Assembly (NCBI RefSeq): GCF_054482525.1
Contig: NZ_JBTHVG010000003.1
Strand: one strand, 5' to 3'
DNA length: 64,000 nt
DNA from: a plasmid
Shown: one piece after another, positions 1 through 8,623 of the stretch
Layout of the letters: each line of letters starts with the position of its first letter
How positions within the stretch are numbered: the stretch's first letter is position 1
Position numbers and translations under genes: made by a program
The notes under the pieces: generated by a model
What the model was told of the DNA's origin: nothing
The model's input: only the letters and a program-made list of their open reading frames with translations
Database searches by the model: none

Positions 1-2856
1 AGCGACATCAGGGACGATGCATATACATTTACTAATTTAGTATTAAAGCCCTTGGTTGAATATGTTCGCTGGATACATCTTTTGCCAGCTTCCGAAAATC
101 ATCATCATAATGGTATTGGTGGGTTACTTTCTCACAGCCTGGAAGTGGCCATACTCTCTTTAAAAAATGCGCATCACTCAGAACTGAGACCAATCGGATA
201 TCAAGATGAAGAAGTAGTCCGTAGAAAAGTATATCTCTATGCTGCGTTTATCTGTGGTTTAGTCCATGATGCCGGAAAGGTTTACGATCTCGATATTGTA
301 AGCCTGAATTTAGCTAGTCCGATCATTTGGACGCCAAGCTCACAAAGTCTTCTTGACTGGGCACGTGAAAATGACGTGGTTGAATACGAAATCCACTGGC
401 GAAAGCGTATTCATAATCAACATAATATCTGGTCCAGCGTTTTCCTTGAGCGAATCCTAAACCCGGTATGTCTTGCATTTTTGGATCGGGTAAATAAAGA
501 ACGTGTTTATTCAAAAATGATCACCGCCCTAAACGTTTATACTGATGGGAATGACTTTTTGTCTAAATGCGTGAGGACCGCTGATTTCTATTCTACTGGT
601 ACAGACCTTAATGTTTTACGTGACCCTATCATGGGTCTGCGTTCTAATGATGCAGCAGCAAGGGCCATTAGTACCATCAAGCACAACTTTACCAGTATCA
701 ATATCAACAATTACAATGCTAAGCCTATGCACATCATTATCGTAAATGGTGAGGTATACCTTAACGAGAACGCATTCCTTGATTTTGTTCTCAATGATTT
801 CGAATTACATAAATATAACTTCCCTCAGGGAGAGGCTGGTAAGACGGTATTGGTAGAATCCCTAGTTCAACGTGGTTACGTCGAGCCCTATGATGATGAG
901 CGTGTCGTTCACTACTTCATTCCGGGTATCTATTCGGAAAACGAAATATCAAACATCTTTAGAAATGGGATAGGGAAACTAGAATTCTATAACCTTCTTA
1001 AGCTAAGGTGGATTGGTTTAATCTTTGATTCCTATAAAATCCCTGACTCAGTGCCGGGTCTTTTTAGCGTTAATGCCAATAAAGACTTTATTTACATTGA
1101 CGAGCAAAAAACAGTTACTGAATACAGAAGACCAGTGCCCGGTCGGGACGCTATAACTAAAATTACTGATACTGTTGAGACGGCTGTTCTTAAGGTTAAT
1201 GATTTAGGCCGCTCCACTGCCTCTATTGATGTTGATATACATTCTAAGAAAAATGAAGGCTCATCCGACGATTTTGAGAAGAAAGCCGAAAGTGATAATG
1301 AAATTGATAATGACACGCAGATAGTTAAATCTGAGGGTGAGGAAGCAGCTGATCCTGTCATTCCTGATATAGAAGAAAGTGAAGATGAATCGGCAAAGGA
1401 CACGGAATCCCATGTCCTGGTCAACCAACTTCATGAACTCCTTTTAAGCGCTCCACTTTCCAATGACTATATAGTGTGTGTAGATGCTGTCCCCTACCTC
1501 AACATAGATGCCACTATGGCATTGCTGCCGGGATTAGATGAAAAAGCATTTAGTGAAGAGCCCTATTTCCAACTGACATTCAGAGAAGGCTCTCTCGATG
1601 GAATGTGGATAGTAAGGGACATTGACGATCTGCGTTTAGTCCAGCTCGGCGATAACTGCGCCGGGTTCCAGCTCACCTATCATGAGCCAAGAAGGCCAAC
1701 AACTTTAAAGTCACTTTTCAATACTTCTATGTATCAGGCATTAGTGATTAATGATGAGTCTTCTGTTGAAAACTCTGCCCCACGTCCAAAGCAAACGCTT
1801 GAGCTGCCTCCCCCACGTGTAAATGCAGTCGAAGAACATTCTGGCGACGTGGAATATCATGGAACCGATAGTGCATCCGCGACTGGTCCGCTGAAAACTG
1901 AGGCTGTGGAATATGAACATTATCAACATCTTTTTGAGGAAGAAGATGAAGAGCATGAGATCATTGATTATACCGATTTCACACAGCTTAGTGTTTCTCG
2001 GCCAGAAGTCGGTAGTTGTGCAACAAGCTCTTCGGTCCATAATGAAAAGCTTCTCCCCGAGCCGTCAGAATTACCAGAACTTAACCGAGAACAGAACGCT
2101 GATCCCCAGGGTACGATTGAACGCTCTATGGATGTTTCTGTAGGACAAGAAAACTCAGAACCAGATACTGAGGGTAACTGCCCACCACCAGCTGAAGTTG
2201 TGTATTCCCAGACCGAAGCAGCCGCAACCAGTGTGATGGCAAGTGAAGAGCCCGCCTTACCTCCTGTACTTGAAGAATCAAATGGAGAGCATGCGCCCAC
2301 AGACGCTAAGGGGCATCATCTTTCGCCAGCACTGGCCAGACTGTTCGCCCCAACAGCACCGGTAGAAAAACAAAATCCCAAGCGCAACCGGAATAAATCA
2401 TCGGACAAAGCAGAAGTACAAAAACCAGCATCACCTGTTTCTGGTCACAATCTGAACAGTAAAGTCTTTGCAACTACTGAATCAGACCAAAATGGTGAAT
2501 TCTCGCTTATAAGCGAAGGTGACGTTACAGAGCTTGAATTTGTAGAAATTGCGTCAGTACTGCATCAAATTCTGTCCAAAATGGAGGTGGCGTTTAAAAG
2601 AAAGCGCAAAAACAGATTTATGGTAAGTACTCCTAATACTCTCTATCTGACCCAATCTTGCGTGGAAAAATTTGGGTCGCAGTTAGAGGCTCAAGATCTT
2701 TTCAATAAGCTTCCTCAGTACCTCGTTAATTCTGGTGCTGTGATCAATACAAAATGCCATGCATTTAACATGCCTACTTTGCTGGCCGCATCAGACCGGG
2801 CGAAAGTGGACATTGAACGAATTATCAATAACCTGAAAGAGGCTGGGAACCTATAA
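1..2856 (+). CDS. Conjugative relaxase, MobH family (TraI-like); 5' end lies outside the window
   Basis: Reading frame is open from nt 1 (no stop before the listed ATG at 52). HD-domain motifs HHHNGIGGLLSHSLEV and GLVHDAGK as in MobH relaxases. Long acidic C-terminal region. Stop overlaps the next start (TAATG). Confidence 0.6.
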   Translation, partial: SDIRDDAYTFTNLVLKPLVEYVRWIHLLPASENHHHNGIGGLLSHSLEVAILSLKNAHHSELRPIGYQDEEVVRRKVYLYAAFICGLVHDAGKVYDLDIVSLNLASPIIWTPSSQSLLDWARENDVVEYEIHWRKRIHNQHNIWSSVFLERILNPVCLAFLDRVNKERVYSKMITALNVYTDGNDFLSKCVRTADFYSTGTDLNVLRDPIMGLRSNDAAARAISTIKHNFTSININNYNAKPMHIIIVNGEVYLNENAFLDFVLNDFELHKYNFPQGEAGKTVLVESLVQRGYVEPYDDERVVHYFIPGIYSENEISNIFRNGIGKLEFYNLLKLRWIGLIFDSYKIPDSVPGLFSVNANKDFIYIDEQKTVTEYRRPVPGRDAITKITDTVETAVLKVNDLGRSTASIDVDIHSKKNEGSSDDFEKKAESDNEIDNDTQIVKSEGEEAADPVIPDIEESEDESAKDTESHVLVNQLHELLLSAPLSNDYIVCVDAVPYLNIDATMALLPGLDEKAFSEEPYFQLTFREGSLDGMWIVRDIDDLRLVQLGDNCAGFQLTYHEPRRPTTLKSLFNTSMYQALVINDESSVENSAPRPKQTLELPPPRVNAVEEHSGDVEYHGTDSASATGPLKTEAVEYEHYQHLFEEEDEEHEIIDYTDFTQLSVSRPEVGSCATSSSVHNEKLLPEPSELPELNREQNADPQGTIERSMDVSVGQENSEPDTEGNCPPPAEVVYSQTEAAATSVMASEEPALPPVLEESNGEHAPTDAKGHHLSPALARLFAPTAPVEKQNPKRNRNKSSDKAEVQKPASPVSGHNLNSKVFATTESDQNGEFSLISEGDVTELEFVEIASVLHQILSKMEVAFKRKRKNRFMVSTPNTLYLTQSCVEKFGSQLEAQDLFNKLPQYLVNSGAVINTKCHAFNMPTLLAASDRAKVDIERIINNLKEAGNL

Positions 2857-7891: not shown

Positions 7892-8623
7892 ATGGATGCT
7901 TTCAATCTGCTGTGGAGCATTACGGGGGTAGCTTTCATTATCCTTATTTTCGTCGTGTTGCTGTGTCTGTTGGGTTTTATGACCTCTGCCATAGCGGAAC
8001 GGCGGACTGCAAAGGCAATTGAATCTGGGCTTCCTGAAGAAGCTCAGGGGCTACTTAGTGATCTCACCTTTCAGTTGTCGGCTCATAGCACTACTCAGGT
8101 TGATCACATTCTCGTAGCCCCACATGGTATATACGTCATAGAGCAGAAAAACTACGTAGGCAAGCTCTACGGTACTCTGGAGGAAAGCCACTGGCGGAAA
8201 TGGACTCAGTCCCGAACCCTCAAGTTGCAGAACCCGTTTAAGCAAAACCAGGGGCACATCAGGGCTATTCAGTCTGCTCTTAAGGCTAGAGAACTGGAAT
8301 GTATCAATGTCGTCATCATAAACGGACGTTGTAAGTTTGATGGCATCAAGCCGGAATGGTTATGTATGGGGATGGACGATTTTATCCATAAAGTCAAACA
8401 ACGACGAGGGCTACGGTTGTTCACACCGGAGTCTGTTCAGCACATCTGTTCGGTGTTGAAGTCAACAAGGAAGTCGCCAGGGCTCTATACGGACCTTACT
8501 CATATTCACAACATAACGACAAAGTACAAAGCCCCGATGAAATTCGAGCAACGAGTAACATACATTCTGCTCAACTTTATCCATTATCTGTGGGCAAGTC
8601 TGTTCACTAAGCAGAAGCCTTAG
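7892..8623 (+). CDS. NERD-domain (nuclease-related) protein with N-terminal transmembrane helix
   Basis: Starts 2 nt after the previous stop; N-terminal hydrophobic helix; HILVAPHGIYVIEQKNY region resembles the NERD core. Confidence 0.5.
   Translation: MDAFNLLWSITGVAFIILIFVVLLCLLGFMTSAIAERRTAKAIESGLPEEAQGLLSDLTFQLSAHSTTQVDHILVAPHGIYVIEQKNYVGKLYGTLEESHWRKWTQSRTLKLQNPFKQNQGHIRAIQSALKARELECINVVIINGRCKFDGIKPEWLCMGMDDFIHKVKQRRGLRLFTPESVQHICSVLKSTRKSPGLYTDLTHIHNITTKYKAPMKFEQRVTYILLNFIHYLWASLFTKQKP

What the first reader, a model, noticed from the sequence alone, without database searches (positions are those of the whole stretch)
1..8623. Relaxase operon extended by an S49 peptidase and a membrane NERD nuclease
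Six genes are tightly coupled (overlapping stops and starts or gaps of 2-10 nt): MobH relaxase, coupling protein, a 369-aa unknown, a 220-aa membrane protein, an S49 (SppA-like) peptidase and a NERD-domain protein with a transmembrane anchor. The operon ends at a clean terminator. A peptidase and a nuclease-related protein co-transcribed with the DNA-processing genes suggest unexplored roles in substrate processing, exclusion or establishment.
Basis: partly seen in the sequence, partly recalled or inferred. Interest (0 to 1): 0.6.

Follow-up and report, generated by a model that had tools for sequence, protein, structure and literature searches.

The report
IncHI2 plasmid DNA-transfer operon, distal half
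This is the well-known DNA-transfer ("H") operon of IncHI2 resistance plasmids. Its last two genes, a periplasm-facing S49 peptidase and a membrane-tethered NERD nuclease, are real, intact and conserved, but already catalogued and reportedly dispensable for transfer, so only their function is still open.

Summary
Six same-strand genes are packed with 1-14 nt overlaps or 1-10 nt gaps and are followed by a strong hairpin plus T-run. The locus is not new: it is at least 99% identical to about 990 sequenced IncHI2 plasmids and syntenic with the R27 (IncHI1) H operon, traH-R0121-traI-traG-R0118-traJ-R0116-R0115.

The window cuts traI, so the operon has eight genes, not six. The "220-aa membrane protein" is TraJ/DtrJ, a known essential partner of the coupling protein. 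The 369-aa protein is an IncHI-only orphan.

The S49 peptidase keeps the SppA Ser/Lys dyad and should face the periplasm. It is the last gene of the relaxase operon even in relatives with only 30-40% identity, where the pilin gene usually follows. The NERD protein occurs at this position only in IncHI-type elements. It has an intact D...ExK site and a restriction-endonuclease-like fold, and should face the cytoplasm. Both genes are under purifying selection and are co-derepressed with the tra genes in R27.

My best guess, with moderate to low confidence, is that S49 does envelope housekeeping redundant with host SppA/SohB, and that NERD acts on DNA at the membrane. Interest is low to moderate.

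The parts
1..2856 (+). traI (MobH-family relaxase), 5'-truncated by the window edge; the first 97 codons lie upstream
   Evidence: NF041494 MobH scores 232.9, above the 200 cut-off. The reading frame is open from base 1. The full gene is 3147 nt in p14EC029b.
2856..4940 (+). traG/traD type IV coupling protein (694 aa)
   Evidence: TIGR03743 SXT_TraD scores 676.8, above the 366 cut-off. It has an N-terminal TM segment and the Walker A motif GNVGTGKT in the translation.
4940..6049 (+). 369-aa orphan, homologue of R27 R0118; cytoplasmic, function unknown
6036..6698 (+). traJ/dtrJ (220 aa, DUF4400/DtrJ-like multi-pass membrane protein)
   Evidence: PF14348 with E 1.6e-12. Hydrophobic segments at about 121-209. 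TraJ homologues carrying DUF4400 are essential for Rts1, SXT and R27 transfer. DtrJ is an alias of TraJ.
6709..7890 (+). S49 (SppA-like) Ser/Lys peptidase, N-terminal signal anchor, periplasmic catalytic domain; homologue of R27 R0116
   Evidence: PF01343. S203 and K255 align with B. subtilis SppA S147 and K199 and are invariant in 5 lineages. A basic N-tail precedes one hydrophobic segment in all 10 orthologues.
7892..8623 (+). NERD-domain PD-(D/E)xK nuclease-like protein, N-terminal TM anchor, cytoplasmic domain; homologue of R27 R0115
8658..8699 (.). Intrinsic-terminator-like hairpin flanked by an A-run and a T-run (potentially bidirectional)
   Evidence: Arms AAAAGGCCCCA / TGGGGCTTTTT with a 12-nt loop. 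dG is -18.3 kcal/mol, z -3.1. The next genes are on the opposite strand.

Best explanation
Window 1-8623 is the distal three-quarters of the H (DNA-transfer) operon of the Tra1 region of an IncHI2 plasmid. The full operon is traH/mobI, orf245, traI, traG, orf369, traJ, S49, NERD. TraI, TraG and TraJ form the known relaxase, coupling-protein and DtrJ core. The S49 gene is an old accessory of this operon type. It encodes an inner-membrane-anchored SppA-like Ser/Lys peptidase facing the periplasm. I infer that it clears or trims membrane peptides produced when the transfer apparatus is induced, such as pilin leader peptides or misassembled TraG, TraJ or Mpf subunits. This work would overlap with host SppA/SohB, which would explain why it is dispensable in laboratory E. 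coli matings. The NERD gene was added in the IncHI lineage. It encodes a PD-(D/E)xK nuclease held on the cytoplasmic face of the inner membrane and made together with the transfer proteins. I infer that it cuts DNA at the membrane, either unwanted incoming DNA or aborted transfer intermediates, and is not part of the essential transfer pathway. The identity, anatomy, catalytic residues, conservation and co-regulation are shown. The topology and both biochemical roles are inferred.
Against: No experiment assigns a function to either protein, and I found no paper on a plasmid S49 peptidase in conjugation. S49 is more tightly linked to dtrJ upstream (8-50 nt) than to the pilin gene downstream (gaps of about 140-190 nt in 3 of 4 loci). 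A DtrJ/TraG-directed role is therefore as plausible as pilin-leader clearance. Topology rests on hydrophobicity and the positive-inside rule only, and some records label the NERD protein 'periplasmic'. In wild-type R27 the distal genes R0115-R0120 are not thermoregulated whereas traH and R0121 are, so transcription may not be a single simple unit. Non-essentiality rests on my memory of the Lawley 2002 abstract.
Confidence: 0.45

Rival explanations
1. S49 and NERD form a coupled conflict module (defence, anti-competitor or abortive). The module rides in the transfer operon so that it is expressed when the cell displays pili and is open to phage or foreign DNA. The periplasmic peptidase senses or regulates, and the membrane-tethered nuclease executes.
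For: The two genes are 1 nt apart in IncHI2 and IncHI1, 2 nt apart in IncHI3, 4 nt apart in L020, and overlap by 4 nt in L021. The NERD domain gives domain-level hits to the N-termini of the defence proteins PglW, MkoA and MAD6. Its best fold matches are restriction or defence nucleases: Upx, Can2, McrC and Shedu SduA. NERD is a lineage-specific addition, as defence genes often are.
Against: No PADLOC system model matches. The hits cover the domain only, scoring 41 bits against a 460 cut-off and 20 against 990. S49 exists without NERD in all distant relatives, so the pair is not an ancestral unit. A defence module would be expected to vary between plasmids, yet this one is fixed across IncHI1, IncHI2 and IncHI3. 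There is no phenotype data.
Confidence: 0.15
2. The peptidase and nuclease take a direct part in processing the transferred substrate (relaxase-DNA), in entry exclusion, or in establishment in the recipient.
For: Both genes are co-transcribed and co-derepressed with traI, traG and traJ. S49 is the conserved last gene of the Dtr operon, not of the Mpf operon, in distant relatives. NERD is a DNA-enzyme fold on the same face of the membrane as the coupling protein.
Against: The S49 catalytic domain is predicted to be periplasmic, away from the relaxosome. IncHI1 exclusion is attributed to EexA/EexB. From memory of Lawley 2002, only traH, traI, traG and traJ were required on this side of oriT. NERD is absent from the other MobH systems I looked at: IncC within the roughly 15.5-kb window inspected around its S49 gene, pSx1, and the metagenomic relatives.
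Confidence: 0.15
3. The two genes are neutral passengers or relics of an older gene order, with no present role in plasmid biology.
For: They are reportedly non-essential for R27 transfer (memory of Lawley 2002). IS elements insert at or next to the 3' end of the NERD gene in several circulating IncHI2 plasmids.
Against: Synonymous sites are saturated while dN stays at 0.19-0.28, as for the essential traI. Catalytic residues are invariant from IncHI2 to IncC for S49 and across 17 NERD sequences. The position is conserved down to about 30% identity. The IS insertion seen changes only the last 4 codons.
Confidence: 0.1

Closest known systems
H operon of the Tra1 region of IncHI1 plasmid R27 (traH, R0121, traI, traG, R0118, traJ, R0116 'peptidase', R0115) and its IncHI2 (R478-type) counterpart
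   Same: The gene order, tight spacing and strand are the same. Protein identities are 63-83%. The locus is at least 99% identical at the DNA level to about 990 IncHI2 plasmids. R0115-R0122 are treated as one operon in R27 transcriptomics.
   Different: Nothing material differs; this is the IncHI2 allele of that operon. The window lacks the first two genes and 291 nt of traI.
MOBH Dtr modules of IncC, SXT/R391 and IncT (traI-traD-dtrJ/traJ)
   Same: They share a MobH relaxase, an SXT_TraD-type coupling protein and a DUF4400/DtrJ membrane protein.
   Different: In IncC the S49 homologue (26% identity) is not in the relaxase operon; it lies next to DsbA near repA. No NERD gene was seen in the IncC region inspected. 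In IncHI-type elements mobI is placed directly upstream of traI.
Signal peptide peptidase A (B. subtilis SppA, E. coli SppA/SohB), MEROPS family S49
   Same: It has the S49 fold signature and a Ser/Lys dyad at aligned positions. Like B. subtilis SppA, it has a single N-terminal membrane anchor with an extracytoplasmic catalytic domain.
   Different: It scores below the NCBIfam SppA cut-offs, 121 against 155. It carries a variable low-complexity insert of about 55 aa (residues 131-187) splitting the domain in IncHI versions. It is plasmid-borne and co-expressed with the transfer genes. Its substrate is unknown.
NERD domains (PF08378) of pXO1-type Bacillus plasmid proteins and of the defence proteins PglW (BREX), MkoA (Mokosh) and MAD6
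   Same: It has the same domain, with a D...ExK core and a restriction-endonuclease-like fold.
   Different: It is a stand-alone 243-aa protein with an N-terminal TM anchor and a helical C-terminal region. It has no kinase or helicase domain, and no partner genes of those systems lie nearby.

Membership tests
IncHI Tra1 H (Dtr) operon | Gene order traH/mobI-orf-traI-traG-orf-traJ-S49-NERD on one strand, on an IncHI-typed MOBH/MPF_F plasmid | tested here: met
   At least 99% DNA identity to 988 plasmids, and the one opened record is typed IncHI2A. The order is identical in R27, pNDM-MAR and two further contigs.
IncHI Tra1 H (Dtr) operon | Co-transcription and co-regulation by the HtdA/TrhR/TrhY circuit | not testable with these tools
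   Published data exist for R27 only. R0115-R0122 are derepressed 4.7-11.3-fold in drR27 at 25 C. Nothing was measured for this IncHI2 copy.
MobH (MOBH) relaxase | Score above the curated NF041494 cut-off; HD-domain motif | tested here: met
   The score is 232.9 against 200 even on the truncated protein. The LVHDAGK motif is visible in the translation.
SXT/TraD-type coupling protein | TIGR03743 above cut-off; Walker A; N-terminal TM | tested here: met
   The score is 676.8 against 366. GNVGTGKT is present, and a TM segment lies at 45-63.
DtrJ/TraJ (PF14348, DUF4400) | Pfam match, multi-pass membrane protein, encoded just after the coupling protein | tested here: met
   E is 1.6e-12 over residues 45-217. 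Hydrophobic segments are present. The position is conserved in all 13 related loci examined.
DtrJ/TraJ (PF14348, DUF4400) | Required for DNA transfer but not for pilus formation | not testable with these tools
   This is reported for homologues in Rts1, SXT and R27.
Peptidase family S49 | PF01343 match and a Ser/Lys catalytic dyad | tested here: met
   E is 5.8e-28. S203 and K255 align to SppA S147 and K199 and are invariant.
SppA proper (signal peptide peptidase equivalog) | Score above the curated TIGR00706 / TIGR00705 cut-offs | tested here: not met
   The scores are 121.2 against 155.45 and 96.1 against 311.45. It is filed as an S49-family protein, not as SppA.
SppA proper (signal peptide peptidase equivalog) | Degrades signal peptides; forms an oligomeric dome on the outer face of the membrane | not testable with these tools
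   Only the N-in signal-anchor topology is inferred.
NERD / PD-(D/E)xK nucleases | PF08378 match, D...(D/E)xK motif, restriction-endonuclease-like fold | tested here: met
NERD / PD-(D/E)xK nucleases | Metal-dependent nuclease activity | not testable with these tools
   This needs a biochemical assay.
Known NERD-containing defence systems (BREX PglW, Mokosh MkoA, MADS MAD6) | Full-length match including kinase or helicase domains; partner genes present | tested here: not met
   Only the NERD domain aligns, at 41 against 460 bits and 20 against 990 bits and with PADLOC partial hits. The neighbours are tra genes and small hypotheticals.

The most novel reading that the evidence does not exclude
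The S49 peptidase is a dedicated, so far unrecognised component of MOBH11-type conjugation machines. It might process or turn over the TraG-TraJ/DtrJ membrane complex or mature the pilin. In IncHI plasmids it has been paired with a membrane-tethered nuclease to form a protease-nuclease module that guards or cleans the DNA portal during mating. Its phenotype would have been masked in classical screens by host SppA/SohB and by the use of permissive E. coli matings.
Probability: 0.12. Interest if true: 0.6.

Novelty: already known. Interest (0 to 1): 0.3.

Why it matters
IncHI2 plasmids are major carriers of mcr, blaNDM, tet(X4) and metal resistance. Their transfer operon is therefore of practical interest. 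Two enzymes are conserved across the IncHI plasmids sampled here (IncHI1, IncHI2, IncHI3 and related contigs), and S49 across a wider MobH clade. Both are co-expressed with the relaxase, yet neither has an assigned function. If either affects transfer efficiency in natural hosts, pilus biogenesis, or competition with phages and other plasmids, it would add a new accessory layer to MOBH conjugation. It could also be a druggable one, as a serine peptidase. As it stands, the finding re-describes catalogued genes and adds a comparative argument, not a discovery.

Tried and rejected
- **Defence-system membership:** PADLOC gave only domain-level NERD hits and nothing for S49, orf369 or TraJ, so I rejected it.
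- **Phage origin of S49:** the PHROG head-maturation-protease hit reflects the shared S49 fold only. There are no phage genes around.
- **orf369 versus its positional analogues:** I compared orf369 with the 181-233-aa ORFs that occupy the same slot in distant relatives. BLASTP found nothing and hhalign gave 2.9% probability. Homology is not shown.
- **RNA families:** Rfam found none in the 64-kb window.
- **Promoter scan:** there were fewer promoter-like sites than in the shuffles (13 against 18.5). I can make no claim about internal promoters.
- **Terminator scan:** it missed the real hairpin because of its 12-nt loop.
- **Literature:** I found no paper linking S49 peptidases to MobH conjugation and no IncHI TraDIS study. 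One search on R0115/R0116/R0118 was swamped by unrelated hits. Lawley et al. 2002 is not held.
- **Apparent fusions:** the DtrJ-S49 and S49-NERD fusion proteins in the database (P0001, P0044) look like frameshift artefacts.
- **NERD outside IncHI:** homologues in Vibrio, Bacillus and Synechocystis plasmids were found. The one neighbourhood I opened, Vibrio pC704, is not next to a MobH relaxase operon.
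Full report
**What is in the sequence**

Bases 1-8623 carry six ORFs on the + strand:
- an ORF open from base 1 to 2856
- 2856-4940 (694 aa)
- 4940-6049 (369 aa)
- 6036-6698 (220 aa)
- 6709-7890 (393 aa)
- 7892-8623 (243 aa)

The junctions are TAATG and TGATG (1-nt overlaps), a 14-nt overlap, a 10-nt gap preceded by AGGTGG, and a 1-nt gap preceded by GAGG.

After the last stop codon lies an 11-nt-arm hairpin, AAAAGGCCCCA / TGGGGCTTTTT, at 8658-8691. A T-run follows it. Its folding energy is -18.3 kcal/mol, z = -3.1 against shuffles. 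The consensus terminator scan missed it only because the loop is 12 nt. The following genes are on the opposite strand.

**What the locus is**

The 9.5-kb stretch matches 999 PLSDB plasmids, 988 of them at 99% identity or more. Most are 200-400-kb conjugative plasmids of Escherichia, Salmonella, Enterobacter and Klebsiella. The hit I opened, p14EC029b, is typed IncHI2A, MOBH, MPF_F.

In that complete record the operon begins upstream of the window with mobI (the TraH equivalent) and a 245-aa ORF. traI itself starts 291 nt before window base 1. The unit therefore has eight genes, and the window shows its distal part.

The same eight genes in the same order occur in four other elements:
- IncHI1 R27 and a Typhi plasmid
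- IncHI3-type pNDM-MAR
- two more divergent IncHI-like contigs

In R27 nomenclature the genes are traH (R0122), R0121, traI (R0120), traG (R0119), R0118, traJ (R0117), R0116 "peptidase" and R0115. All eight are labelled as the H operon in a published transcriptome.

**Identity of each product**

- **TraI:** passes the curated MobH model, 232.9 bits against a 200 cut-off.
- **Coupling protein:** passes SXT_TraD, 676.8 against 366.
- **The 220-aa "membrane protein":** this is TraJ, now called DtrJ. It matches PF14348 (DUF4400/DtrJ-like) with E 1.6e-12. Its homologues are essential for transfer of Rts1, SXT and R27. It is not an extension of the operon but part of its core.
- **The 369-aa protein:** no family hit in any library. 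It has only 19 relatives among 1.84 billion representative proteins. A moderately confident model (pLDDT 79) resembles nothing informative. The shorter ORFs in the same slot in distant relatives are not detectably homologous. It is an IncHI-specific orphan.

**The S49 peptidase**

It matches PF01343 but falls below the curated SppA cut-offs. I therefore file it as an S49-family protein, not as SppA.

Ser203 and Lys255 align with the catalytic Ser147 and Lys199 of B. subtilis SppA. Both are invariant in IncHI1, IncHI2, IncHI3, Shewanella pSx1 and IncC homologues.

All ten orthologues examined have a basic N-terminal tail followed by one hydrophobic segment. That is the signature of an N-in signal anchor with the catalytic domain in the periplasm, as in SppA. 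This topology is an inference.

IncHI versions carry a variable low-complexity insert of about 55 aa that splits the domain.

**The NERD protein**

It matches PF08378. D71, E84 and K86 (the D...ExK motif) are invariant across 17 homologues.

It has a very hydrophobic segment at residues 12-30, with no basic residue before it and several after it. I infer an N-out anchor with the nuclease domain on the cytoplasmic face.

Its similarity to the defence proteins PglW, MkoA and MAD6 is confined to the NERD domain and lies far below their cut-offs.

**Are the genes functional and co-expressed?**

Between IncHI2 and IncHI1, synonymous sites are saturated. The non-synonymous divergences (dN) are:

| Gene | dN |
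|---|---|
| S49 | 0.19 |
| NERD | 0.28 |
| traI | 0.25 |
| traG | 0.11 |

Between IncHI2 and IncHI3, S49 is 47% identical, level with TraG (47%) and TraJ (48%). Both genes are therefore under purifying selection comparable to that on essential transfer genes.

In R27, all of R0115-R0122 rise 4.7-11.3-fold in the htdA-derepressed plasmid at 25 C, whereas the adjacent R0114 does not. This fits an operon that ends after the NERD gene.

One caveat applies. In wild-type R27 only traH and R0121 respond to temperature (8-12-fold), while R0115-R0120 stay near 1-fold. An internal promoter or differential mRNA stability is possible.

**Distribution beyond IncHI**

I examined the neighbourhoods of eight distant S49 homologues (29-40% identity).

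Six of them lie 8-50 nt downstream of dtrJ in an operon of the form mobI-orf-TraI_2-TraD-(small orf)-DtrJ-S49. In four of those six, the very next gene is a TraA-like pilin (NF041281, E 1e-9 to 1e-13, below the curated cut-off), followed by traL-E-K-B. In a fifth, L018, the pilin lies two genes downstream.

The other two are elsewhere on plasmid-like contigs. In IncC the S49 homologue lies next to DsbA.

S49 is thus an old terminal member of this type of Dtr operon, sitting at the Dtr/Mpf boundary. IncHI plasmids moved the Mpf genes to Tra2 and kept S49 with the relaxase genes.

NERD occupies this operon position only in IncHI-like elements, and the 369-aa ORF is found only in them. The one NERD homologue neighbourhood opened on another plasmid, Vibrio pC704, is not next to a MobH operon.

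**Mechanism**

What is shown is the anatomy, the catalytic residues, the conservation and the co-regulation. What follows is inference.

A periplasm-facing SppA-like enzyme made together with the transfer proteins most plausibly clears or trims membrane peptides. Candidates are pilin leaders and surplus or misassembled TraG, TraJ or Mpf subunits. This function overlaps with host SppA/SohB.

That overlap would explain why, as I recall from the abstract of Lawley et al. 2002, only 9 of the 14 Tra1 ORFs were required for transfer: traH, traI, traG, traJ, trhR, trhY, trhF, trhH and trhG. The paper itself could not be opened. The figure of 14 ORFs is confirmed.

There is a precedent in the same plasmid. 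Loss of the R27-encoded DsbC matters only in dsbC-null hosts.

Because S49 is linked more tightly to dtrJ than to the pilin gene, a role directed at the TraG-TraJ complex is an equally live option.

For NERD I can only say that it is a membrane-tethered, probably active nuclease produced in transfer-competent cells. Cutting unwanted incoming DNA and removing aborted transfer intermediates are the simplest readings.

Direct roles in substrate processing or exclusion are less likely. S49 is on the wrong side of the membrane for that, and IncHI1 exclusion is already assigned to EexA/EexB.

**Novelty and verdict**

The locus is a catalogued operon present in about a thousand sequenced plasmids. 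Its products are already annotated as "S49 family peptidase" and "nuclease-related domain-containing protein", and R0116 is already listed as a "peptidase" of the H operon.

I found no paper addressing the function of either protein, so the functional question is open and cheaply testable.

This analysis adds four points:
- S49 is an ancestral, selection-maintained terminal gene of MOBH11-type Dtr operons, usually adjacent to the pilin gene.
- NERD and the 369-aa ORF are IncHI-specific additions.
- Both enzymes keep intact active sites.
- The two enzymes are predicted to sit on opposite faces of the inner membrane.

My rating is: already known, with low to moderate interest.

Noticed in passing
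R27 homologues of window 1-8623 (L002/L006); data from PMC7366339 Tables S3/S4: In wild-type R27 only traH and R0121 are thermoregulated (8-12-fold, 25 C vs 37 C). R0115-R0120 stay near 1-fold, and R0115-R0118 have higher basal signal than traG and traI. All eight genes rise together in the htdA mutant. This suggests an internal or basal promoter, or differential mRNA stability, within the H operon.
   Followed up: partly
L009:1404-2501, L011:1427-2500, L015:1-1056, L017:250-1530, L018:94-1158: A ParM-like actin gene (PF17989 ALP_N) lies divergently upstream of mobI in five distant MobH/S49 loci. This implies a conserved partition-oriT-relaxase arrangement that is not seen at this position in the IncHI plasmids.
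   Followed up: no
window ~8598-8623 (L019:8598-11014): Several otherwise identical IncHI2 plasmids carry IS elements (ISEc23, ISCro1, ISVsa5, IS100, ISApl1) within the matched 9.5-kb stretch. In the only one whose insertion site was checked, p5CRE51-NDM-9, ISEc23 lies at the 3' end of the NERD gene and shortens it by 4 codons. The region may be an insertion hot spot.
   Followed up: partly
database proteins P0001 (509 aa) and P0044 (251 aa): These are apparent DtrJ-S49 and S49-NERD fusion proteins in public assemblies. The sequences look like single-base frameshift or assembly artefacts, not real fusions.
   Followed up: yes
window 7099-7269 (S49 residues 131-187): A variable, Ser/Thr/charged-rich insert splits the S49 domain in IncHI1, IncHI2 and IncHI3. 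It is shorter in pSx1 and absent in IncC. It diverges much faster than the rest of the protein.
   Followed up: no
L005:7335-9170 (IncC pEC8-NDM-1): In IncC plasmids the S49 homologue is followed 16 nt later by a DsbA-family gene, within a long run of uncharacterised same-strand ORFs near repA. This may be a separate 'periplasmic helper' cluster.
   Followed up: no
window 8891-12279, minus strand: A run of small hypothetical ORFs (94-180 aa) converges on the operon terminator. The same set is conserved downstream of the NERD gene in IncHI1 and IncHI2 records, and none has an annotated function.
   Followed up: no
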